Of a stretch of DNA of 60,591 nucleotides, positions 3,989-56,030 are shown in pieces. The notes under the pieces are model-generated. The model was not told the origin of the DNA and ran no database searches. It worked only from the letters and a program-made list of their open reading frames with translations. Source of the DNA: Candidatus Nealsonbacteria bacterium RIFCSPLOWO2_01_FULL_43_32 (GTDB lineage: Bacteria; Patescibacteriota; Minisyncoccia; Minisyncoccales; MHMH01). The stretch lies in the NCBI GenBank assembly GCA_001819335.1, contig MHMH01000006.1, forward strand, positions 1 to 60,591. Reading direction: 5' to 3'. The position numbers were made by a program, and so were the translations under genes. How positions within the stretch are numbered: the stretch's first letter is position 1; each line of letters opens with the position of its first letter.

Positions 3989-3992
3989 GGAG

Positions 3993-4150
3993 TTATCCCC
4001 TAATTACTTACTTATCCCCATAATTATCCACAATTCGCCACTACAACTCCATTATCCCCCACCTAAAGGAGCTTGGTCAAGCTCCGCCAACTATGCCAAA
4101 ACACCTAAAAAAAGCCCTTAAAGGGCTTATTTATCCACTTTTTATCCACA
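3993..4150. promoter_or_regulatory. Array of six same-orientation TTATCC(A/C)C boxes upstream of mraZ (MraZ operator or DnaA boxes)
   Basis: Boxes at 3993, 4012, 4024 (TTATCCACA), 4052, 4131 (TTATCCACT) and 4142 (TTATCCACA). A putative minus-sense promoter TTGACC-N18-GATAAT overlaps box 4. Confidence 0.6.
4105..4128 (-). terminator. Intrinsic terminator after the DUF4015-like gene
   Basis: AAGCCC-TTAAA-GGGCTT stem followed by a U7 run in the minus sense. Confidence 0.6.
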
Positions 4151-4151
4151 G

Positions 4152-8545: not shown

Positions 8546-9223
8546 TTAACCCTTAAGCTTGCGGTATAAATCTTTTAAAACGTCAGCCGCGATTTCTTTC
8601 CCGCCCAAACCGAAAGCCAGGCCCGCCGAAATAACGATGACCGCCACTAAGCCGGTAAACAATGTTTGGACTAAAACCGCCCCCACCCCTAGCTGAACCA
8701 GGATGATGGAGATGGCAAAAATCCAAATGGACCACTTGATGATTAAGCCGACGATGTGGCCGTAGCCTGCTTTGATTGACTCGACCGAGGCTCGGACCAC
8801 TTTCTCCAGAATGTCAGCCAAGAGCACTGCTACTACGAAAATAAAGGCAGACACCACGACATTGGGCAGATAGCCAAGCACCTCTTTTAAGAGGCTGGCG
8901 AATTCTTTGAGACCCAACACTTCCACGGCCGCCATTAAAAAGACAATGGCTAAAACCCATTTGACAATGGCGCCGATAAAAGCCGAGGCGTCCACTTTGA
9001 TGTTGGCCTTGGCTAGGGCTTCGTCCCAATTGCCCTTCTCAAATATCTGATTAAATCTTATTCTCTTGAGAATTTCGGCAATCAATCCGCCCACGCCCAC
9101 CGAAATAAGCCAGCCGACGACAAAGATAATAATCGCTCCGACCAAAGCCGGGATAAGCGCCACAAACCCTTGCCAAAGATTCTGGAGGGCGTCCAGGGTG
9201 ACTGTGTACCAATCTAAAATCAT
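8546..9223 (-). CDS. Multi-pass membrane protein, mechanosensitive-channel-like TM-helix repeats
   Basis: 225 aa with about 5-6 TM helices. Weak resemblance to conserved-TM-helix (MscS-associated) proteins. No SD before the ATG. Confidence 0.5.
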   Translation of the reverse strand: MILDWYTVTLDALQNLWQGFVALIPALVGAIIIFVVGWLISVGVGGLIAEILKRIRFNQIFEKGNWDEALAKANIKVDASAFIGAIVKWVLAIVFLMAAVEVLGLKEFASLLKEVLGYLPNVVVSAFIFVVAVLLADILEKVVRASVESIKAGYGHIVGLIIKWSIWIFAISIILVQLGVGAVLVQTLFTGLVAVIVISAGLAFGLGGKEIAADVLKDLYRKLKG

Positions 9224-9235
9224 ATAATTATAATG

Positions 9236-9305
9236 CGAATCTTACGAATAATTATCCGAATACTACGAATATTCGTATCATTCGGATACGAATTCGCATC
9301 ATTCG
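9236..9305. promoter_or_regulatory. Dyad-symmetric array of 4 CGAAT + 4 ATTCG pentamers (copy A)
   Basis: CGAAT starts at 9236, 9245, 9257 and 9266. ATTCG starts at 9271, 9280, 9292 and 9301. Spacing is 9/12/9 on each arm. The array ends 12 nt from the ATG at 9223. Confidence 0.7.
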
Positions 9306-9517
9306 GATTTTGTTATATTTTTTCGACCTTTTAGGCGATGAAGTTTACCTCCTTCGGAGTTTGCCTTCATCTTCACCTTCGCCCCGCTTTGCGGGGCTCG
9401 GTTAAAGATTAGTGTATTATACAGGAGTCAAGTCAAACAAAAAAGCCATAGGGCTGTGGATAACCCTGAACCAGGTCAAAGACCGGTTCAGGGCCCTAAA
9501 CCGAGCTATGCTCTGGT

Positions 9518-11273: not shown

Positions 11274-11326
11274 CGAATAACTAATTCTTTGCGAATATAC
11301 GAATTCGTAAATTCGTAACTTATTCG
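11274..11326. promoter_or_regulatory. Shorter CGAAT/ATTCG dyad array upstream of rnc
   Basis: CGAAT at 11274, 11292 and 11300. ATTCG at 11303, 11311 and 11322. Central TACGAATTCGTA. rnc has no SD. Confidence 0.5.
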
Positions 11327-11757: not shown

Positions 11758-11767
11758 TATAATACTT

Positions 11768-11805
11768 ACCTCCCGAGGGTGCTTATTTAAACACCCTCGG
11801 GAGGT
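11768..11805 (-). promoter_or_regulatory. SD-sequestering hairpin upstream of nusB (family copy)
   Basis: ACCTCCCGAGGGTG (11768-81) pairs with CACCCTCGGGAGGT (11792-805). In the minus sense the 3' arm carries GGAGG 10 nt before the nusB ATG. Confidence 0.75.
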
Positions 11806-11813
11806 GTTTAGGA

Positions 11814-12863: not shown

Positions 12864-12911
12864 TATAGAATTATATCATTTTTTAAAATAAAAAAGCTCT
12901 GGCTTTCTTTT

Positions 12912-16132: not shown

Positions 16133-16161
16133 ATCCTTCTTCTCCACCTTCGTCCACGCAA

Positions 16162-16208
16162 GCGAAGCGAAGAGTAAAGAAGAAATTTATTTCTTCGCAT
16201 CGCTTCGC
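16162..16208 (+). repeat. Long hairpin after dnaE within a GC-rich REP-like element
   Basis: GCGAAGCGA (16162-70) pairs with TCGCTTCGC (16200-08), with an inner AGAAGAAAT/ATTTCTTC stem. The flanks resemble the element at 9374..9402. Confidence 0.5.
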
Positions 16209-16243
16209 GGGACTCGGTGATTGAAGAAATTATCGAAAAATAA

Positions 16244-16269
16244 AACAGCCCCGCTAAATCGGGCCTGTT
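16244..16269 (-). terminator. Terminator after the RAYT-1 gene
   Basis: Minus sense AACAGGCCCG-ATTTAG-CGGGGCTGTT followed by a U-rich run. Confidence 0.5.
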
Positions 16270-16286
16270 GAATAATTACGAAGTAA

Positions 16287-16985
16287 TTATGGGAGTCCGA
16301 CTCCCATATTTTTTAATAACTGCTGGACAGATTTAATATTTTTACTATAGTATTTTAACCAATTCATAAAAAATTCTCGATATTTTTCTGGAGTTTCAAA
16401 GAATCTAGATATAAAATTATTATCTATTAGTGAGGGAAAATTCTTGATACCAAGCCAATCTAAATGGCTTGACCATCGGTACTTATTTTCTAAAAAATCC
16501 ATAGCTCTCACAATCTCTGAATTATTCAGACCTGTTTTTTTCCAATCGGGCTTCCAAAGATCTAAAGGATTAGCGTGAATATAACAAATCAATTGAAGAG
16601 CTTGAGTATCATTAACAACGCGAACTTTTTTATATTTCCCCTGGAACAATACTCCGCTTCTTTTATATTTATTATTGAAAAAATTAGTAAAGCCTACTCC
16701 GAACTTTTTGTGATATTTTGATAAGCCATTATCTCTAATCGGGCATAGAAAAAAATGGTAATGGTTTGGCATTAGATTCCAGCATATTAAGTTTACTAGT
16801 TTCTGGCGTTGTTTTTCCAGAAGAAAAGAAGGCGGAGATTTATCAAACCGATAAGCAATATTAACGACATCATCAACGTCATTGAACTCATACGCGTCAT
16901 GAACAGCTCGAAGATAATCCGTATCTTCTAAAAATATCTTTCTTTTTTCTGTTCCTCGGTTATAAGTATGATAAAATTCTAGCAT
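16287..16985 (-). CDS. REP-associated tyrosine transposase-like (IS200/Y1 HUH) protein, paralog 1
   Basis: HUH motif MPNHYHFF and catalytic-Tyr motif CYIHANPL. Confidence 0.8.
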   Translation of the reverse strand: MLEFYHTYNRGTEKRKIFLEDTDYLRAVHDAYEFNDVDDVVNIAYRFDKSPPSFLLEKQRQKLVNLICWNLMPNHYHFFLCPIRDNGLSKYHKKFGVGFTNFFNNKYKRSGVLFQGKYKKVRVVNDTQALQLICYIHANPLDLWKPDWKKTGLNNSEIVRAMDFLENKYRWSSHLDWLGIKNFPSLIDNNFISRFFETPEKYREFFMNWLKYYSKNIKSVQQLLKNMGVGLP

Positions 16986-37787: not shown

Positions 37788-39193
37788 AATTGTTCAAAAA
37801 TTTCGGCCAGGGCTAAAATTTTATGTTCACTAAATGGTTGACCAATCATCTGCAGACCGACGGGTAGAGCGCCCACTTTACCGCAGGGCAAAGAAAGGGC
37901 GGGCAGACCGGCTAAGTTGACCGAAACCGTGTAAACATCAACCAGATACATGGATAAAGGGTCTTTGATTTTTTCGCCGAGTTTAAATGGCAGTACAGGG
38001 GAAGTCGGAGTTAACAGCACGTCCACTTTCTGGAAAACCTTTTTGAAATCATTGATAATTTGCGTCCTGACTTTCTGCGCCCTCAAATAATAGGCCTCGT
38101 AATAACCGGACGACAAAGCATAGGTACCCAGCATGATTCTCCGTCTGACTTCGGGGCCGAAGCCCTGGCCCCGGGATTTCAGATAAACTTCCATTAGGTC
38201 TTTGCCTAAAGCCGCGTAGCCGTATTTTATCCCATCATAACGAGCCAGATTAGCCGAAGCTTCTGAAGGATTAATCATGTAATAAGCAGGCAGAGCGGCT
38301 TCGGTATGGGGCAAGCTCACTTCAATGAGCTTGGCGCCGGCTTTTTCGTATTTTCGAATCGCTTCTTTGACGAGCCTCTCAATACTCGGGTCAATTCCTT
38401 TGACAAAATACTCCTTGGGCATGCCAATCTTTAAATTTCGAATTTCGAATTTCGAATTTCGAATTTTTGATTCCACCGAAGTGGAATCAAGCGGATCTTG
38501 GCCCGCGATGGCCTCAAATACTATTTTAGCATCTTCCACGGTCTTTGTGATGGGACCAATTTGGTCCAAAGAAGAAGCAAAAGCAATCAAACCATAACGG
38601 GAAACCGCTCCATAAGTGGGCTTTAAGCCCACCACGCCGCAGAAAGAAGCAGGCTGGCGGACAGAACCTCCGGTGTCTGAACCAAGCGCATAGATAGACA
38701 TGTCGGCAGCCACAGCTGCCGCTGAACCACCTGATGTTCCACCGGGTACTCGGGTCAGGTCGTGCGGGTTGCGAGTCGGGCCAAAAGCCGAGTTCTCGGT
38801 AGAGGAACCCATGGCAAACTCATCAAGATTGGTCTTGCCCAGAATAATTGCTCCCTGCTTTTTAAGCTTGGCTACTACTGTAGCATCATAGGGAGCTACA
38901 TAGTTTTCCAGCATCCTGGAACCAGCCGTGCATTTGACGTTTTCAATCAGGATATTATCTTTGATGGCAGCCGAAATCCCAGCCAGCAAAGATATCTCTT
39001 GGCCAGTGGCCAATAGGTCATCTATTTTCTTAGCTTGAGTCAGGGCCGCACTTTCATCAACGCTTAAAAAAGCATGGATTGATTTGTCTTGCTCTTTGAT
39101 TTTATTTAAATGGGCTTGGCAAAGTTCCAGAGCAGAAAATTGTTTTTTCTTCAGCCCCTGATGCGCCTGAGCGATGGTTAATTCGGTTAACAT
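37784..39193 (-). CDS. gatA: Glu-tRNA(Gln) amidotransferase subunit A
   Basis: Amidase signature GGTSGGSAAAVAA and GSDTGGSVRQPA. Confidence 0.95.
   Translation of the reverse strand: MLTELTIAQAHQGLKKKQFSALELCQAHLNKIKEQDKSIHAFLSVDESAALTQAKKIDDLLATGQEISLLAGISAAIKDNILIENVKCTAGSRMLENYVAPYDATVVAKLKKQGAIILGKTNLDEFAMGSSTENSAFGPTRNPHDLTRVPGGTSGGSAAAVAADMSIYALGSDTGGSVRQPASFCGVVGLKPTYGAVSRYGLIAFASSLDQIGPITKTVEDAKIVFEAIAGQDPLDSTSVESKIRNSKFEIRNLKIGMPKEYFVKGIDPSIERLVKEAIRKYEKAGAKLIEVSLPHTEAALPAYYMINPSEASANLARYDGIKYGYAALGKDLMEVYLKSRGQGFGPEVRRRIMLGTYALSSGYYEAYYLRAQKVRTQIINDFKKVFQKVDVLLTPTSPVLPFKLGEKIKDPLSMYLVDVYTVSVNLAGLPALSLPCGKVGALPVGLQMIGQPFSEHKILALAEIFEQL
38434..38468. repeat. Heptanucleotide tandem repeat (AATTTCG)x4 plus a partial unit, inside gatA
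   Basis: Units at 38434, 38441, 38448 and 38455. Translated as IRNSKFEIRNLK. Confidence 0.8.
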
Positions 39194-43456: not shown

Positions 43457-44223
43457 CTATCGGGGTCGAACCCCGATAGCCTACTCTATGGCGACTTTTT
43501 CGAAATCAGCTAATTCTTTTTTGAATTCTAACCAACTATCTACTGCTTCCTTGCAACCTTTCACCCCGCCCATTGTTTCAGCTAAAAACTCTCGGCTGGT
43601 TAAAGACGGAAAATTTTTAACTCCTAAATAATCTGGATAGCTTGACCACCTGTAATCTCTCGCGAAATTAATTACTTTTTTCGCATCTTCAATTCCTCTT
43701 TCCTTCCAACCAGGAAAGATAATGGCCACCGGATTAGTATGAACGTAAACAAAAATTGTGTAAAGTTGTTTGTCGTTCTCGATATGGACCAACCTGTATT
43801 TTCCTTGGAATAGGTGTCCGACTCTTTTGTGTCTCTGATTATAATAGACTCCGTAACCTCCGCCAATCTTTTTCATAAACTGACTGATTCCGCCATCTCT
43901 TATCTGGCGAAGTAATAGGTGAACATGATTAGGCATTAAACAAAAGGCTAGAATCTCTACCAACATCTCCCTAACTCCCCTCTTATAGCTATCGGGGTCG
44001 GACCCCGTTAGTTTTGATTTTTGGAAGAAACGGAAATTAGAAGAAACGGGGCTTGTGTCATTGAACTCAAATAAATCATGAATCATGCGAAAGTAATCTT
44101 TTTCATCACGAAAAAGCTTCAGATTTTCTACTGTCCGAATAACGGTATGATATATTTCTCCATTAACTAACGGCGGTCTTTTGCTTGGCATATTAGCGTA
44201 TTAGCGGGGTCGGACCCCGATAG
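43457..44223 (-). mobile_element. RAYT/IS200-like unit 2 with cognate hairpins (two flanking plus one internal)
   Basis: CTATCGGGGT-CGA-ACCCCGATAG at 43457-79; CGGGGT-CGG-ACCCCG at 44205-23; internal copy at 43989-44011. Confidence 0.7.
43481..44191 (-). CDS. REP-associated tyrosine transposase-like protein, paralog 2
   Basis: HUH motif MPNHVHLL; Tyr motif VYVHTNPV. Confidence 0.8.
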   Translation of the reverse strand: MPSKRPPLVNGEIYHTVIRTVENLKLFRDEKDYFRMIHDLFEFNDTSPVSSNFRFFQKSKLTGSDPDSYKRGVREMLVEILAFCLMPNHVHLLLRQIRDGGISQFMKKIGGGYGVYYNQRHKRVGHLFQGKYRLVHIENDKQLYTIFVYVHTNPVAIIFPGWKERGIEDAKKVINFARDYRWSSYPDYLGVKNFPSLTSREFLAETMGGVKGCKEAVDSWLEFKKELADFEKVAIE

Positions 44224-49859: not shown

Positions 49860-50629
49860 TTGATGGATATCCGATATCCATCAATACACATCAATCTAAA
49901 AATAATCTTTTTATCGAATCGGTATTCTTTTCATAATATCTCAGCCAATCTATGAAAAATTCCCGATACCCCGCCGGCCCGCCAAAAAAGTTAATCAAAA
50001 ATTCATTATTACTAATCAATGACGGGAAATTTTTAATGCCGAGGTAGTCTAAATGGCTAGACCACCGGTATTCCTTCTCTAAAAATTTTAAGGCGCCCTG
50101 AATCTCCAAACTAGATAAACCATTCTCTTTCCAGCCGGGCTTCCATAAATCTAGCGGGTTTGAATGGATATAACAAACCAATTGAGCCATCTGGGTGTCA
50201 TCGACAACTTGAACCTTTTTATATTTTCCCTGGAATAATACCCCACTCCTTTTATATTTGGTATTAAAAAAATTGCTGAAACCTATCCCAAGTTTTTGAT
50301 GGAACCTTGGCAGACCGTTCTCAACCTTCGGAGTAGAAAAAAGGTGATAATGATTGGGCATTAAACACCAAACAATAATATCTATTAACTTGTTTCTTGA
50401 TTTTTCCGCAGAAGTTCCATTGATGGATATCCGATTTCCATCAAATCGCCGATTGAGATTAATAACAGCATCAGTGTCGTTAAATTCGTAAAAATCATGT
50501 ACGCACCGCAAATAATCCGTGCCGTCCATAAATATCTTGCGTTTCTCAACCCCTCGATTATAGGTATGATAAAAAATAGATTCCATTAATAAATTATAAC
50601 ACGGATTGATGGATATCCGATATCCATCA
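49860..50629 (-). mobile_element. RAYT/IS200-like unit 3 with cognate hairpins (two flanking plus one internal)
   Basis: TTGATGGATAT-CCG-ATATCCATCAA at 49860-84, 50607-29 and (1 mismatch) 50420-44. Confidence 0.7.
49891..50586 (-). CDS. REP-associated tyrosine transposase-like protein, paralog 3
   Basis: HUH motif MPNHYHLF; Tyr motif CYIHSNPL. Start moved to MESIFYHTYNRG because the upstream track codons are the hairpin. Confidence 0.8.
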   Translation of the reverse strand: MESIFYHTYNRGVEKRKIFMDGTDYLRCVHDFYEFNDTDAVINLNRRFDGNRISINGTSAEKSRNKLIDIIVWCLMPNHYHLFSTPKVENGLPRFHQKLGIGFSNFFNTKYKRSGVLFQGKYKKVQVVDDTQMAQLVCYIHSNPLDLWKPGWKENGLSSLEIQGALKFLEKEYRWSSHLDYLGIKNFPSLISNNEFLINFFGGPAGYREFFIDWLRYYEKNTDSIKRLFLD

Positions 50630-50716
50630 CAATCCATCACATATACGCGAATTGATTTCGAGGCATCGATGGAGTATTATCCAATATAGAGAGATTGAAT
50701 CTCCTAAAATCGTTTT

Positions 50717-52892: not shown

Positions 52893-53243
52893 TTATTTGA
52901 CTAATTCTATCAAGGCCATTTCAGCGCCATCGCTTTGCCTTACGCCCAGCTTGATGATCCTGGTAAAGCCTCCCCGCCTTGACTGGTATCTTGGCGCTAC
53001 GTCATCAATAAGCTTTTTTACGACTTTGGGAGTAAAAAACCGGCCAAGCCTTTTTCTTGAAGACAAATTGGCTTTTTTAGCTTGGGTGATCAATGTTTCA
53101 ACAACAATTCTTGCCTCTTTGGCCTTGGCTTCGGTTGTTTTAATCTTCTCTTCCAGGATAAGAGAGGCAGCCAAACTTTTTAATAAAGCCCGGCGCTGAG
53201 CCTTTTCTCTACTTAGTTTTCTTCTTTTTTTTCTTTTCTGCAT
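52893..53243 (-). CDS. rplQ: 50S ribosomal protein L17
   Basis: KLSR....RRALL..L...L..E.I.TT.AKAKE pattern. Overlaps the rpoA 3' end by 35 nt. Confidence 0.9.
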   Translation of the reverse strand: MQKRKKRRKLSREKAQRRALLKSLAASLILEEKIKTTEAKAKEARIVVETLITQAKKANLSSRKRLGRFFTPKVVKKLIDDVAPRYQSRRGGFTRIIKLGVRQSDGAEMALIELVK

Positions 53244-53994
53244 GTTTTTGAACTTTCTTTGTTCTCTTTACTTTTTCCTTAACTACCGAAGCTTTGACTA
53301 ATGAAGGCACCTCTTTAAAGACCTCGCTTAACAGAGAAAAGTGCCTGACCAAAATTTCTGAAGCCTGAGAGAGCGCTCCCTCCGGAGTGGTCGTGCCGTC
53401 GGTTTCTAACTCCAGAATCAAACGGTCAAAGTCGGTCCGCTCACCCACTCTCATGCTCTCAACCCGATAGCTTACTTTTCTGACCGGGGTGAAGATAGCG
53501 TCTACGGCAATGGTGCCGATTTCTAATTTGCCTTTTTTCCTGGTTTCCACCGGTTCGTAGCCCAAACCTTTTTCAATCAGGATTTCTATCTCCAGGTTAG
53601 CTGTCGGAGCGGTTAAGGTGGCCACATGGACGTCTTGATTCATTAAATCCACCTGGGAGGGCAATGCGAAATTGGCTCCTTTGACTGCTTTTTGGCCTTT
53701 AACTTTGAGGGTGGCTTGCTGGGGCTCTTCAGTATGCAATTTGAATCTTAACTGTTTGATGTTGAGCAAAATGGTAATGACGTCTTCAATCACGCCAGGG
53801 ATAGTTGAAAATTCGTGCTGAACGCCCTTGATTTTAACCTGGGTGACCGCGGCACCTTCTAAAGAAGAAAGTAAAACCCGGCGTAAAGAGTTGCCTATGG
53901 TTACACCGTAGCCCGGGTAAAGGCCGGCTATTTCAAAAATGGCTCGGTTGTCTTTTTTCTCGATGACTTTTGGCTGAAGCGGTAAGGGAATCAT
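53209..53994 (-). CDS. rpoA: RNA polymerase alpha subunit, N-terminal domain only with a Lys-rich tail
   Basis: GYGVTIGNSLRRVLLSS motif. 261 aa, ending KVKRTKKVQKHAEKKKKKKTK. No alpha-CTD sequence. Confidence 0.9.
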   Translation of the reverse strand: MIPLPLQPKVIEKKDNRAIFEIAGLYPGYGVTIGNSLRRVLLSSLEGAAVTQVKIKGVQHEFSTIPGVIEDVITILLNIKQLRFKLHTEEPQQATLKVKGQKAVKGANFALPSQVDLMNQDVHVATLTAPTANLEIEILIEKGLGYEPVETRKKGKLEIGTIAVDAIFTPVRKVSYRVESMRVGERTDFDRLILELETDGTTTPEGALSQASEILVRHFSLLSEVFKEVPSLVKASVVKEKVKRTKKVQKHAEKKKKKKTK

Positions 53995-54011
53995 ATAAAT
54001 AATATATAATC

Positions 54012-54081
54012 CGAATTCTTCGAATAGTTATCCGAATTCTACGAATATTCGTATCATTCGGATAAAAATTCGTATCATTCG
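54012..54081. promoter_or_regulatory. Dyad-symmetric array of 4 CGAAT + 4 ATTCG pentamers (copy B) between rpsD and rpoA
   Basis: CGAAT at 54012, 54021, 54033 and 54042. ATTCG at 54047, 54056, 54068 and 54077. Spacing identical to copy A. Confidence 0.7.
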
Positions 54082-54092
54082 CATTATGTTAA

Positions 54093-54701
54093 TTATCTTG
54101 AATAATACTCAAAAATAGTTGACATTTCAGCTGGCGGAGCAGCTTCTTCAAGGGTCGGTACCCCGACCACCTCTCCCTTTAGATTATCGGCATCCATCTT
54201 TAACCAAACGGGCGCTTGGTGTTTTTTTAATAGAGGCATTAAGTTGCTGAAAGCTTTCTTTTTTTGAGAAGCGGGATTAAGGGTTATCTGATCGCCTTTT
54301 TTTAATTGATAAGAAGGCAAATTCACCGCCTGTCCATTGAGGAAAAAATGACCGTGAGAAATGTGCTGGCGCGCCTGCGCCCTGGAATTCACCAGTCCCA
54401 AGCGGAGAATCACATTGTCAAAACGACTTTCCAGGGCTTCAATTAAAAGGTCGGGGGCAGGATTGTTCTCAACGTAGTTGGCCAATTGCCTTTCTCTGAG
54501 ATGATACCAATTTTTCAGTTTTTGTTTCTCCTTCAATTCTTTGCCGTATTCAGAAAGAGCGCTCATTCTTTTTTTCTTCTTGGCCATGCCCGGCGGATAG
54601 GGTTTTCTAACCAAAGTGCATTTGGGCGACAAGCATTTCTCGCCTTTTAAAAAGAGTTTTGTACCCAACCTGCGACAAATTTTACATTGATTGTTTTGCA
54701 T
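54093..54701 (-). CDS. rpsD: 30S ribosomal protein S4
   Basis: Start moved to MQNNQCKICRRLGTKLFLKGEKC (zinc-ribbon type S4). The upstream track codons overlap rpsK. Confidence 0.9.
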   Translation of the reverse strand: MQNNQCKICRRLGTKLFLKGEKCLSPKCTLVRKPYPPGMAKKKKRMSALSEYGKELKEKQKLKNWYHLRERQLANYVENNPAPDLLIEALESRFDNVILRLGLVNSRAQARQHISHGHFFLNGQAVNLPSYQLKKGDQITLNPASQKKKAFSNLMPLLKKHQAPVWLKMDADNLKGEVVGVPTLEEAAPPAEMSTIFEYYSR

Positions 54702-54708
54702 AAAATAA

Positions 54709-55164
54709 TTAGACCCTTCTCGCTTTAGGCGGACGGCAGCCGTTGTGAGGTACCGGCGTCGTATCGGTGATGGAGAGAATTTCCAACCCTTTGTTGGCCA
54801 ACGACCTGATGGCCGATTCTCGGCCACCGCCAACGCCTTTGATGAAAACAATGACTTTTTGGATACCCAGGCTGAAAAGCTTTTGGGAAATGGTTTCAGC
54901 CACTTTTGAGGCGGCGAAAGGAGTGGCTTTCTTGCTACCTTTGAAGCCAATAGCGCCGGCGCTTGAGGCAGCCAGAACATTGCCCCGGGGGTCGGTCAAG
55001 GTGATGAGAGTGTTGTTGTAAGAAGAAAAAATGTAAACTCTCCCTTCTTTCAAGCGGCTGGCAGGGGCTTCTGCGACTGCTTCTTTTTTAACAGTGGCCT
55101 CTATTTTAGCTCTTTCTTCAAGCAGCTCTTTTTCGGTTTGTTGAATAATGCGCTTTTTCCCCAT
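54709..55164 (-). CDS. rpsK: 30S ribosomal protein S11
   Basis: YIFSSYNNTLITLTD...GFKGSKK.TPFAA... Confidence 0.95.
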   Translation of the reverse strand: MGKKRIIQQTEKELLEERAKIEATVKKEAVAEAPASRLKEGRVYIFSSYNNTLITLTDPRGNVLAASSAGAIGFKGSKKATPFAASKVAETISQKLFSLGIQKVIVFIKGVGGGRESAIRSLANKGLEILSITDTTPVPHNGCRPPKARRV

Positions 55165-55172
55165 TTCTAATC

Positions 55173-55206
55173 ACCTCCCGAGGGTCAGTAAACACCCTCG
55201 GGAGGT
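55173..55206 (-). promoter_or_regulatory. SD-sequestering hairpin upstream of rpsK (family copy)
   Basis: ACCTCCCGAGGGT (55173-85) pairs with ACCCTCGGGAGGT (55194-206). GGAGG lies 9-10 nt before the ATG. Confidence 0.75.
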
Positions 55207-55215
55207 ATTTAATTA

Positions 55216-55605
55216 TTAAGTTGGTTCGGCGGCTGGCTTACGGCCCGAACCCACGGTTTTTCTGACGTTCCCCCTGACCGTTCGGTTGTTGGTGCTGGTT
55301 CTCTGGCCCCTGACAGGCAAACCCTTGAGATGACGCAGTCCCCTCCAAGAACCAATATCTTTTAATCTTTTAATATTCATCATCCGCTCTCTCCTCAAAT
55401 CGCCTTCAATCTTATAGGTTTTCTCAATCAGGTCCTTAAGCTGGTTGATTTCGGCCGGAGTGAGCTGGGTGGCTTTGGCTGCGGGATCTATCTTGGTTTC
55501 GCTCAAAACTTTCTTACTCAAAGAACGGCCTATGCCGTAAATATAGGTCAGCGCTATCTCTATTTGTTTGTTTTCGGGTATATTAACCCCGGCAATACGC
55601 GGCAT
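55216..55605 (-). CDS. rpsM: 30S ribosomal protein S13
   Basis: MPRIAGVNIP....I.IALTYIYGIG. Confidence 0.95.
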   Translation of the reverse strand: MPRIAGVNIPENKQIEIALTYIYGIGRSLSKKVLSETKIDPAAKATQLTPAEINQLKDLIEKTYKIEGDLRRERMMNIKRLKDIGSWRGLRHLKGLPVRGQRTSTNNRTVRGNVRKTVGSGRKPAAEPT

Positions 55606-55616
55606 ATAACAAAAAA

Positions 55617-55730
55617 TTAACCCTGGCGTTGTTTGTGTTTCGGGTTTTTACAGATGACATAAATTTTTCCTTTACGTCGAACTATTTTGCAATGACTGCA
55701 GATTGTTTTGACCGATGGTTGTACCTTCAT
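55617..55730 (-). CDS. rpmJ: 50S ribosomal protein L36
   Basis: Hand translation [37 protein letters not shown] (37 aa). Not in the ORF track. Confidence 0.9.
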
Positions 55731-55740
55731 AAAAAATCAT

Positions 55741-55799
55741 CGAATAGCGAATCAGTTGCGAATTTACGAATTCGTATATTCGTATTTTTTCGTTATTCG
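55741..55799. promoter_or_regulatory. CGAAT/ATTCG dyad array upstream of rpmJ
   Basis: CGAAT at 55741, 55748, 55759 and 55767. ATTCG at 55770, 55778 and 55795. Central TACGAATTCGTA as before rnc. Confidence 0.5.
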
Positions 55800-55808
55800 T
55801 TGATTTAT

Positions 55809-56030
55809 TTATTTTCCTCGATAAACTATCCTGCCTTTAGTGGCGTCGTAAGGACTCATTTCCACGGTGACTTTGTCGCCCGGCAAAATCCTGATATGGA
55901 ACAGGCGTAATTTTCCGGCCAGATGGGCGGTAATTTCTCTGCCGTCATCTAATTTCACCTTAAAATGAGTACTGGGAAGCGCCTCTAAAACTAATCCGTT
56001 ATATCTTAGGATTTTCTTATCTGATTTCAT
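55809..56030 (-). CDS. infA: Translation initiation factor IF-1
   Basis: 73 aa S1-like protein; GKLR...[21 protein letters not shown]. Confidence 0.95.

What the first reader, a model, noticed from the sequence alone, without database searches (positions are those of the whole stretch)
54012..54081. Same eight-pentamer CGAAT array (copy B) between rpsD and rpoA
CGAAT starts at 54012, 54021, 54033 and 54042. ATTCG starts at 54047, 54056, 54068 and 54077. This is exactly the 9/12/9 | 9/12/9 architecture of copy A, with about 85 percent identity over about 80 nt. It fills the 98-nt rpsD-rpoA spacer inside an otherwise tightly packed ribosomal operon. rpoA also lacks an SD. This suggests an internal promoter or operator that controls rpoA-rplQ separately from rpsM-rpsK-rpsD.
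Basis: partly seen in the sequence, partly recalled or inferred. Interest (0 to 1): 0.7.

Follow-up and report, generated by a model that had tools for sequence, protein, structure and literature searches.

The report
Repeated-word palindrome upstream of rpoA
The eight-pentamer CGAAT array in front of rpoA is real, but it is not an rpoA-specific switch: it is one copy of a widespread, apparently undescribed kind of "repeated-word palindrome" that sits about a dozen bases before the start codons of highly expressed genes in CPR bacteria, and also occurs in other phyla and a phage.

Summary
Four CGAAT then four ATTCG lie at the stated positions with 9/12/9|9/12/9 spacing. Copy B is 87% identical to copy A over 82 nt, and simulations never give more than 5 pentamers per 80 nt.

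The organism is a Candidatus Nealsonbacteria (CPR) bacterium, and the genes lie on the minus strand. The window holds four such arrays, upstream of an MscS-like gene, rnc, rpmJ and rpoA.

The central 28-nt pattern hits 60 stretches of the species-genome collection (I estimate about 1 by chance). Hits are mostly CPR, but also Deltaproteobacteria, Prevotella and Planctomycetota; a separate viral scan hit one phage contig.

Arrays end a median of 13 nt before the downstream ATG. About 22 of 34 CPR downstream genes encode translation or transcription machinery.

Related genomes carry the same architecture built from other words (CGCTGAT, ACGAAA, ATAGTC and others), in every junction of this operon. 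Many relatives have no array.

No Rfam family matches and I found no literature. It is not a TIGR array, a terminator or a RAYT-flanking REP.

Best reading (0.45): a dispersed palindromic repeat transcribed as a stem-loop just 5' of SD-less start codons. A promoter or operator module is a serious rival (0.3). "rpoA lacks an SD" carries no weight, since 55 of 63 genes do.

The parts
54012..54081 (-). Array B: four CGAAT followed by four ATTCG, spacing 9/12/9|9/12/9. In gene sense it reads CGAATgataCGAATttttatcCGAATgataCGAAT|ATTCGtagaATTCGgataactATTCGaagaATTCG.
54005..54088 (-). Full repeat element, including the conserved closing flanks (C/T)ATAATn ... nATTATA shared by the 13 full-length family copies.
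   Evidence: family alignment; helix extends into the flanks
53995..54011 (-). A/U-rich linker between the array and the rpoA ATG. It contains TATATT at 54001-54006, which is positions -12 to -7 relative to the A of the ATG. This could be a leaderless-type -10, or simply the single-stranded initiation region.
54083..54112 (-). Sigma-70-like match TTGAGT-18-CATAAT (9 of 12). The -10 is the upstream flank of the element, and transcription from it would start inside the first pentamer.
53209..53994 (-). rpoA, 261 aa, with no alpha C-terminal domain. This is the gene downstream of array B.
54093..54701 (-). rpsD, the gene upstream of array B. Its stop codon lies 11 nt before the first pentamer.
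9236..9305 (-). Array A, same family, 12 nt upstream of the ATG of an MscS-like membrane protein (8546-9223). It lies downstream of a terminator-like hairpin and of a TATAAT that is shared with orthologue L031.
11274..11326 (-). Array C, same word but 8|8 inner spacing and centre CGAATTCG. It lies between nusB and rnc, 9 nt before the rnc ATG.
55741..55799 (-). Array D, same type as C. It lies between infA and rpmJ, 10 nt before the rpmJ ATG (rpmJ 55617-55730).

Best explanation
Array B is one copy of a dispersed family of 'repeated-word palindromes'. A short word (here CGAAT) is repeated 3-5 times with 3-7-nt spacers and is followed by the same number of inverted copies. The element fills the rpsD-rpoA spacer and is transcribed with the operon.

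In the mRNA it folds into a stem-loop of about 30 base pairs interrupted by small purine-rich internal loops. The foot of that stem lies about 5-10 nt before the SD-less rpoA AUG.

Inferred mode of action (not shown): the helix draws the rpsD stop and the rpoA start to within a few nucleotides of each other and keeps the A/U-rich start region free of other pairings. That would make rpoA translation depend on, or be boosted by, ribosomes finishing rpsD. After any processing, the helix would also give the downstream message a protective 5' hairpin.

The family spreads or turns over like REP or MITE-type repeats, and is retained preferentially in front of very highly expressed genes.

Shown: the anatomy, the family, its anchoring to start codons, its gene preference and its strand asymmetry. 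Inferred: that it is transcribed through, that it folds in vivo, and its effect on translation or stability.
For: 1. Hairpin. Gene-sense RNA of B folds at -37.3 kcal/mol (z = -7.4). The helix runs from the rpsD stop region to 5 nt before the AUG. Arrays A and D and arrays from other phyla give z of -2.9 to -6.2; C is weakest (z = -2.8).
2. Any word will do.
- In 80 RpoA-anchored loci the same architecture is built from ACGAA(T/A), CGCTGAT, GCGGA, TAGCTT, GACAA, CTGAAAC and others.
- Different words occur in one genome, and in one operon. In Deltaproteobacteria an ATAGTC array sits in folD|cooC and a CGAAT array sits between a 290-aa gene (provisionally acsE) and a 297-aa gene (provisionally acsD).
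- Mononucleotide-shuffled loci give 0 arrays against 39 real ones.
- A self-complementary structure explains this more simply than a set of binding proteins.
3. Position. Median 13 nt (IQR 11-17) to the downstream ATG. The array lies next to the start codon in 11 of 13 roomy spacers.
4. It occurs where no promoter is needed: every junction of infA-rpmJ-rpsM-rpsK-rpsD-rpoA-rplQ-rplM in some genome, terL|portal in a phage, and between convergent genes.
5. Strand asymmetry. Spacers are purine-rich in gene sense in 30 arrays against 4 (18 against 3 without the two richest genomes). Array-less spacers of the same operons are at 0.50. The 9/12/9 family has conserved tandem G.A/A.G mismatches, and I count 15 of 17 copies in the same orientation relative to the gene (p = 0.002).
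6. Copy A and its orthologue L031 share a TATAAT well upstream of the array, which places that array in a 5' UTR.
7. Dispersal.
- At least 17 matches on 12 contigs in one MAG, with near-identical spacers.
- Presence or absence varies at orthologous spacers, and the L071 orthologue of B is inverted in place.
- Arrays fill otherwise minimal spacers.
8. Gene preference. By my reading of the sequences, about 22 of 34 downstream genes in CPR encode ribosomal proteins, EF-Tu/Ts, RF1/2, RpoA/C, LysRS, MiaA or RNase III. Pfam confirmed 18 of the 20 checked, plus rpoA and rnc. P is about 6e-11 against an assumed 15% background.
Against: - There is no strand bias in predicted stability: sense is more stable in 16 arrays and antisense in 17, and 17 against 18 in a second set.
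- There is no compensatory covariation in the pentamers.
- In orthologous arrays from Deltaproteobacteria and at CPR tuf|rpsJ the pentamers stay CGAAT while the spacers diverge and are mostly non-complementary. That pattern looks like sequence-specific recognition.
- ACGAA(T/A) words make up 21 of 37 arrays (my grouping), so words are not arbitrary.
- -10-like hexamers are enriched between CGAAT arrays and the ATG.
- No transcript data exist for this organism in the tools I had.
Confidence: 0.45

Rival explanations
1. Promoter or operator module. The pentamers would be binding sites on double-stranded DNA for an oligomeric factor: tandem dimers on each arm, head to head. They sit directly upstream of a -10 box that drives leaderless or short-leader transcription of the downstream gene. 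The arrays would mark a regulon of highly expressed translation and transcription genes in CPR bacteria, whose RpoA lacks the alpha C-terminal domain.
For: - In orthologous arrays the pentamers are near-invariant at fixed spacing while the spacers are free.
- Pentamer pairs recur at 21 bp, which is two helical turns.
- There is two-fold DNA symmetry without RNA strand bias in stability.
- Downstream genes are enriched for translation machinery.
- rpsJ, a classical operon start, carries an array in three of the five CPR genomes compared.
- This window uses TAnAAT 5-8 nt before the ATG at several genes. B has TATATT-6-ATG and A has CATTAT-6-ATG.
- -10-like scores 4-9 nt before the ATG are higher for array-preceded genes than for controls (median 3.6 against 0.3 bits, p = 8e-4).
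- L051, in a divergent spacer, has TGATATAAT at the upstream flank. B has TTGAGT-18-CATAAT.
- In the Deltaproteobacterial arrays upstream of the acsD-like gene, TAA follows the last word in all four (ATAAT in two).
Against: - Several different words occur in one small genome and even in one operon, which would need several factors.
- Arrays lie between convergent genes, where there is nothing to promote.
- Arrays lie inside tightly coupled operons and in a phage late operon.
- No recurrent -35 is found.
- The -10-like flank is part of the repeat itself. Its distance to the ATG is spread over 4-9 nt, whereas control promoters peak at 6.
- There is no -10 enrichment for arrays of other words (p = 0.10).
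- Array-less orthologues of rpoA show no such -10 by eye.
- The purine asymmetry of the spacers is not expected for a symmetric operator.
Confidence: 0.3
2. A selfish or neutral miniature repeat of MITE or REP type, with no function for the host. It inserts into, or arises by slippage and template switching in, the few spacers that a compact genome offers. It is tolerated because a self-folding palindrome does not disturb neighbouring genes.
For: - High copy number with near-identical copies in one MAG.
- Patchy presence at orthologous sites and in-place inversion.
- Distribution across phyla and in a phage.
- Arrays add about 70 nt to otherwise minimal spacers.
- Three Y1 (IS200/RAYT-like) transposase genes lie in the window.
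Against: - Words are conserved at orthologous sites across species whose spacers have diverged.
- Anchoring to the downstream start codon is tight.
- Enrichment before highly expressed genes is strong.
- Composition is strand-specific.
- I saw no target-site duplication in the flanks.
- The Y1 transposase genes are flanked by other hairpins, not by these arrays.
Confidence: 0.15
3. A cluster of recognition sites for a DNA methyltransferase or a Type III restriction-modification enzyme. CGAAT is the HinfIII site, and Type III enzymes act on head-to-head sites. The array would work as an epigenetic or restriction-related element.
For: CGAAT is the published HinfIII/HineI site, and Type III cleavage needs inversely oriented sites (PMC3874151). 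The arrays are head-to-head sets of an asymmetric 5-mer.
Against: - CGAAT outside the arrays is not significantly avoided under a maximal-order Markov model (82 observed against 95 expected, z = -1.6).
- I noticed no restriction-modification gene among the window ORFs I looked at.
- Many other words are used, several per genome.
- The fixed distance to start codons is unexplained by this idea.
Confidence: 0.03

Closest known systems
REP/BIME elements of enterobacteria (and REPINs with their RAYT transposases)
   Same: Both are short imperfect palindromes that are multi-copy and strictly extragenic. Both are found between co-directional or convergent genes and are transcribed with operons. From general knowledge, REP stem-loops act as mRNA stabilisers and set differential expression within operons, for example malE-malF.
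   Different: REPs are single hairpins of 20-40 nt with a conserved GTAG end, and they flank their RAYT gene. Here the arms are built from 3-5 copies of a 5-7-nt word. The element is anchored 11-17 nt before start codons. The RAYT-like genes of the window are flanked by unrelated hairpins.
Correia, ERIC and BOX-type miniature repeats (from general knowledge)
   Same: Both are dispersed palindromic repeats of 70-150 nt inserted in intergenic spacers. Both are co-transcribed, can carry promoter-like ends, and can alter the stability of neighbouring mRNAs.
   Different: Those families have one long unique consensus with terminal inverted repeats and a target duplication. Here the arms are periodic repeats of one short word, the word differs between arrays, and I saw no target duplication.
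Operators of ribbon-helix-helix repressors: ParG O_F boxes, omega heptads, MetJ met boxes (from general knowledge)
   Same: Both are arrays of very short boxes (4-8 bp) with short regular spacers, in direct and inverted orientation, just upstream of genes. In those operators one protein dimer binds per box.
   Different: Those operators lie next to the gene of their own repressor and use one box sequence per system. Here there are dozens of sites per genome, several words per genome, sites between convergent genes, and no cognate gene nearby.
Short tandemly repeated repetitive (STRR) heptamers of cyanobacteria (from general knowledge)
   Same: Both are intergenic arrays of a 5-7-nt word that is specific to a lineage.
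   Different: STRRs are simple head-to-tail runs. Here every array is a direct set followed by an inverted set, and it is positioned relative to a start codon.
TIGR arrays of TIGR-Tas systems, common in CPR (PMC12045711; bioRxiv 10.64898/2026.09.09.750476)
   Same: Both are arrays of short repeats in CPR genomes that standard repeat finders miss.
   Different: TIGR arrays alternate two 8-12-nt repeats with variable 9-nt spacers, are repeated 5-15 times, and lie next to a tas (Nop-domain) gene. Array B has 5-nt words, 4- and 7-nt non-variable spacers and palindromic symmetry, and I noticed no tas-like gene among the window ORFs.

Membership tests
REP/REPIN-RAYT | Multi-copy extragenic imperfect palindrome | tested here: met
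   Four copies in the window. At least 17 matches on 12 contigs of one MAG.
REP/REPIN-RAYT | The RAYT (Y1 transposase) gene is flanked by its own REPs, and there is a conserved GTAG-type end | tested here: not met
   Y1_Tnp genes lie at 16287-16985, 43481-44191 and 49891-50640. The one checked in detail (43481-44191) is flanked by CTATCGGGGTCGAACCCCGATAG-type hairpins, not by CGAAT arrays. GTAG is present in only some copies.
MITE | Terminal inverted repeats plus a target-site duplication | tested here: inconclusive
   The flanks ATAAT...ATTAT are inverted, but I saw no direct duplication. Empty and filled orthologous sites are too diverged to align.
MITE | Presence/absence polymorphism at orthologous sites | tested here: met
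   14 of 74 rpsD|rpoA spacers have an array of at least 3+3 words, 10 more have 2+2, and 34 spacers are shorter than 45 nt.
Sigma-70 promoter | -35 and -10 hexamers separated by 16-18 bp | tested here: inconclusive
   One 9-of-12 match sits at the upstream flank of B. None is found at A. No recurrent -35 is seen in 13 family copies.
Leaderless-type promoter | TAnnnT ending 5-8 nt before the ATG | tested here: inconclusive
   Present at B (TATATT-6-ATG) and enriched for CGAAT arrays (p = 8e-4). However, the distances are not peaked as they are in controls, and there is no enrichment for arrays of other words (p = 0.10).
Transcription-factor operator array | One recognition word per factor, with sites in promoter regions of a regulon | tested here: not met
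   Several words occur per genome and per operon. Some sites lie between convergent genes. The regulon-like gene enrichment is, however, met.
Any Rfam family | Match to a curated covariance model | tested here: not met
   Only five tRNAs reach gathering score in the window. In the 201-nt region there are only weak miRNA-precursor look-alikes, the best at 25.9 bits against a gathering score of 80.
Intrinsic terminator | G+C-rich stem followed by a T run | tested here: not met
   No terminator-like site in 53900-54200. The stem is A/T-rich, and no T-run site was called there.
TIGR array | Alternating 8-12-nt edge and loop repeats with variable 9-nt spacers, next to a tas gene | tested here: not met
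   Sequence compared with the definition.
Type III restriction-modification target cluster | A cognate mod/res system in the genome, and methylation of the word | not testable with these tools
   Only the identity of the word with the HinfIII site is known. The avoidance test was not significant.

The most novel reading that the evidence does not exclude
The arrays are a previously unrecognised class of cis-regulatory element. The CGAAT word would be read on DNA (or RNA) by a conserved oligomeric factor. That factor would co-ordinate expression of the translation and transcription machinery across the Candidate Phyla Radiation, possibly standing in for UP-element/alpha-CTD control, which these RpoA proteins cannot perform. 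Relatives of the system would exist in Deltaproteobacteria, Bacteroidota, Planctomycetota and phages.
Probability: 0.25. Interest if true: 0.85.

Novelty: new variant of a known kind. Interest (0 to 1): 0.6.

Why it matters
Almost nothing is known about how CPR/Patescibacteria control gene expression. Very few are cultured, most genes in this window lack Shine-Dalgarno sequences, and their RNA polymerase alpha subunit lacks the C-terminal domain.

This element is easy to recognise. It marks EF-Tu, RpoA/RpoC, release factors and a dozen ribosomal-protein genes in many CPR lineages. It therefore gives a concrete handle on that question, whichever mechanism proves right.

It can be tested directly. 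Candidate tests are 5'-end mapping in existing groundwater metatranscriptomes, reporter assays, and pull-downs with an 84-bp duplex or RNA.

The class is also of general interest. These repeated-word palindromes appear in several phyla, their words are conserved, and they sit at a fixed distance from start codons. I found no Rfam family and no paper describing them.

Tried and rejected
- Rfam. Searched at gathering and permissive thresholds: no family.
- TIGR-Tas arrays. Read both papers; the anatomy does not fit.
- REP/RAYT link. The Y1 transposase gene I checked is flanked by other hairpins.
- Intrinsic terminator. None predicted.
- Compensatory covariation at pentamer position 2. In-register pairs are no better than out-of-register pairs. 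The 13-copy family alignment has too little variation.
- RNA strand test by MFE, sense against antisense. No bias in two sets.
- Restriction-site avoidance of CGAAT. Not significant once trinucleotide and tetranucleotide context is modelled. The apparent depletion comes from the low-order model.
- A neighbouring gene common to arrays across phyla. Only ribosomal-operon genes and local orthologues recur, with no candidate binding protein or transposase.
- A conserved -35 upstream of the family's ATAAT flank. None.
- Literature. Searches for the word, the palindrome core, CPR repeats and leaderless translation found no description of the element.
- Viral collection. One hit only.

Full report
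**What is there.** Four CGAAT are followed by four ATTCG, with starts 9, 12 and 9 nt apart on each side, and the inner two abut as CGAATATTCG. Copy A at 9236-9305 has the same layout and is 87% identical over 82 nt, spacers included. CGAAT is not frequent in the window (116 hits). In 300 first-order Markov simulations no stretch of about 80 nt held more than five pentamers, against eight or nine observed.

The genes are on the minus strand:
- infA 55809-56030
- rpmJ 55617-55730
- rpsM 55216-55605
- rpsK 54709-55164
- rpsD 54093-54701
- rpoA 53209-53994
- rplQ 52893-53243

The array fills the 98-nt rpsD-rpoA spacer. It starts 11 nt after the rpsD stop and ends 17 nt before the rpoA ATG.

**Context in the window.** The best RpoA relatives that carry a name are labelled Candidatus Nealsonbacteria (CPR/Parcubacteria), from groundwater. 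Almost all of them, like this one, lack the alpha C-terminal domain.

The window holds two more CGAAT arrays with different spacing: C at 11274-11326 between nusB and rnc, and D at 55741-55799 between infA and rpmJ. All four arrays end 9-17 nt before a minus-strand ATG.

The absence of an SD before rpoA is not informative, because only 8 of 63 genes have an SD-like motif. Several genes instead have TAnAAT 5-8 nt before the ATG, the signature of leaderless transcripts.

**Distribution.** The central 28-nt pattern CGAAT-N4-CGAATATTCG-N4-ATTCG has 20 specified bases, so I estimate about one chance match in 596 Gb. It matched 60 stretches in the one-genome-per-species collection.

Most hits are CPR lineages: Nealson-, Moranii-, Collier-, Doudna-, Falkow-, Giovannoni-, Roizman- and Liptonbacteria and Paceibacterota. 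One MAG has at least 17 matches on 12 contigs. The same 3-4 + 3-4 architecture also occurs in several Deltaproteobacteria/Syntrophaceae, Prevotella/Bacteroidales and Planctomycetota. A separate viral scan found it in one phage contig, between terL and portal.

Arrays mostly fill short spacers between co-directional genes. In non-CPR genomes several lie between convergent genes.

**Relation to genes.** Across 31 arrays in co-directional spacers:
- The last word lies a median of 13 nt (IQR 11-17) from the downstream ATG.
- The distance to the upstream stop varies widely (IQR 5-85).
- In 13 spacers with at least 60 nt to spare, the array sits next to the start codon in 11. At least one of the two exceptions (L023) is a gene-calling error.

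The genes directly downstream in CPR genomes are RpoC, RpoA, L2, L5, L7/L12, L15, L20 (twice), L24, L36, S7, S10 (twice), S21, EF-Tu, EF-Ts, RF1/RF2 (twice), LysRS, MiaA, RNase III, GroES, FtsA, MreB, a pilin and a few others. Pfam confirmed 18 of the 20 checked, plus rpoA and rnc. Roughly 22 of 34 belong to the translation or transcription machinery. That gives P of about 6e-11 against an assumed 15% background, where the background is my estimate. Three of the five CPR genomes compared carry an array in the tuf|rpsJ spacer.

**The word can change, the architecture does not.** I fetched 80 orthologous loci through RpoA. Many relatives have a short rpsD-rpoA spacer with no array. Others have an array of the same design, ending a few nucleotides before the rpoA ATG, but built from a different word. 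Words seen include CGCTGAT/ATCAGCG, ACGAAA/TTTCGT, GACAA/GTCAT, TAGCTT/AAGCTA, CTGAAAC, CGCGGA and ACTAAT.

Arrays of at least 3+3 words occur in every junction of the operon in some genome:

| Junction | Arrays of at least 3+3 words |
|---|---|
| rpsD\|rpoA | 14 of 74 loci (10 more with 2+2) |
| infA\|rpsM | 9 |
| rpsK\|rpsD | 5 |
| rplQ\|rplM | 4 |
| rpoA\|rplQ | 3 |
| rpsM\|rpsK | 2 |

By my grouping of the words, ACGAA(T/A) accounts for 21 of 37 arrays and C(G)CTGAT for 7. Different words coexist in one genome.

In the Deltaproteobacterial Wood-Ljungdahl operon, gene names are provisional and read from the sequences. An ATAGTC array sits in folD|cooC, and a CGAAT array sits between a 290-aa gene (acsE-like) and a 297-aa gene (acsD-like). 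Each is conserved in three or four species. Shuffled loci give no arrays, against 39 real ones.

The orthologue of B in L071 (84% RpoA identity) is the same element inverted in place.

**Tests of mechanism.**

For a transcribed stem-loop:
- The gene-sense RNA of B folds at -37.3 kcal/mol (z = -7.4). The helix is closed by pairing between the rpsD stop region and the bases 5-11 nt before the AUG. Most other arrays give z below -4.
- The 13 full-length family copies share conserved tandem G.A/A.G mismatches. I count 15 of 17 copies in the same orientation relative to the downstream gene.
- Spacers of CGAAT arrays are purine-rich in gene sense in 30 of 34 informative arrays. Array-less spacers of the same operons are at 0.50.
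- Copy A and its orthologue L031 share a TATAAT upstream of the array, which places that array in a 5' UTR.

Against a stem-loop:
- Predicted stability shows no sense bias.
- The pentamers show no compensatory changes.
- In orthologous arrays the pentamers are conserved while the spacers drift and are mostly non-complementary. That is what protein-binding sites look like.

For a promoter or operator:
- B has TATATT 6 nt before the ATG, and TTGAGT-18-CATAAT at its upstream flank.
- The family flank nATTAT usually lies 4-8 nt before the ATG.
- -10-like scores are higher for array-preceded genes than for controls (p = 8e-4).

Against a promoter or operator:
- The -10-like flank is part of the repeat, and its distance to the ATG is not peaked at 6 nt as in control promoters.
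- There is no -10 enrichment for arrays of other words.
- There is no recurrent -35.
- Arrays occur between convergent genes and inside a phage late operon.
- Several words per genome would need several factors.

**Comparison with known things.** No Rfam family matches. TIGR arrays, which are common in CPR, have a different anatomy and need a tas gene. The Y1 transposase gene I checked in the window is flanked by an unrelated hairpin, so these arrays are not its REPs. No terminator is predicted. CGAAT happens to be the HinfIII Type III restriction site, and such enzymes need head-to-head sites, but CGAAT is not avoided elsewhere in the window. Full-text searches found no description of the element.

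The closest known kinds are REP/BIME, Correia or ERIC-type dispersed palindromes, for what the element is. For the rival reading, the closest are ribbon-helix-helix operator arrays such as ParG boxes and omega heptads. Both comparisons rest on general knowledge.

**Verdict.** The array is a cis element belonging to the 5' side of rpoA, and copies A and B are the same thing. It is not a private rpoA switch.

My probabilities for what it is:
- 0.45: one copy of a dispersed, word-periodic palindrome that is transcribed and acts as a stem-loop just upstream of SD-less start codons of highly expressed genes.
- 0.30: a DNA-level promoter or operator module.
- 0.15: a neutral repeat.
- The remainder: other explanations.

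The class as a whole appears undescribed and is worth an experiment. The individual copy B is ordinary within that class.

Noticed in passing
window 11758-11813, 35529-35592, 55165-55215: A second dispersed hairpin family: ACCTCCCGAGGGTG-loop-CACCCTCGGGAGGT. Its 3' arm is the Shine-Dalgarno sequence of the next gene (nusB, the 1423-aa gene 31257-35528, and rpsK). These account for 3 of the 8 SD-bearing genes in the window, and in each the SD is locked in a stem.
   Followed up: partly
window, whole: The genome is SD-poor: only 8 of 63 genes have an SD-like motif. Several genes have TAnAAT 5-8 nt before the ATG (hexamers at 12875, 16997, 21735, 46408, 50705, 58900), which suggests widespread leaderless transcripts. 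Control genes in other CPR loci show the same peak at 6 nt.
   Followed up: partly
window 53209-53994: RpoA is 261 aa, lacks the alpha C-terminal domain and ends in a lysine-rich tail. Nearly all of the 120 best relatives listed are the same; only 2 carry PF03118.
   Followed up: no
window 16287-16985, 43481-44191, 49891-50640: Three IS200/RAYT-like Y1 transposase genes lie within 60 kb. The middle one is flanked on both sides by CTATCGGGGTCGAACCCCGATAG-type hairpins, as a RAYT is by its REPs.
   Followed up: partly
window 3989-4151: Six copies of G(T/G)GGATAA lie upstream of mraZ. They match the DnaA-box 9-mer TGTGGATAA and are also reminiscent of MraZ box repeats.
   Followed up: no
window 38439-38464: (TTCGAAT)x4 head-to-tail lies inside the gatA reading frame and encodes KIRNSKFEIRNLK.
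   Followed up: partly
window about 9330-9400 (compare 16133-16286): The leader of gene 8546-9223 carries an insert of about 75 nt (a G+C hairpin plus GGAGG) that is absent from orthologue L031. A similar sequence lies next to the Y1 gene at 16287.
   Followed up: no
L071:996-1058 versus window 54012-54081; L045 versus L063: Orthologous arrays are inverted in place while their flanks stay the same. This suggests recombination between the arms, or re-insertion.
   Followed up: partly
L046:3313-3381, L066:3488-3548, L032:4793-4871: Deltaproteobacterial Wood-Ljungdahl operons carry a second array built from ATAGTC/GACTAT in the folD|cooC spacer. This is in addition to the CGAAT array between the acsE-like and acsD-like genes.
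   Followed up: partly
L151:2651-2720: A phage contig has a CGAAT array between the large terminase and portal genes, about 11 nt before the portal ATG.
   Followed up: partly
L089, L092, L096, L099, L119 (rpsD-rpoA spacer): A different, G+C-rich conserved element (…agagcgagcccgaagc…gggcgagcgat…) occupies the same spacer in another group of relatives. It may be a structured leader.
   Followed up: no
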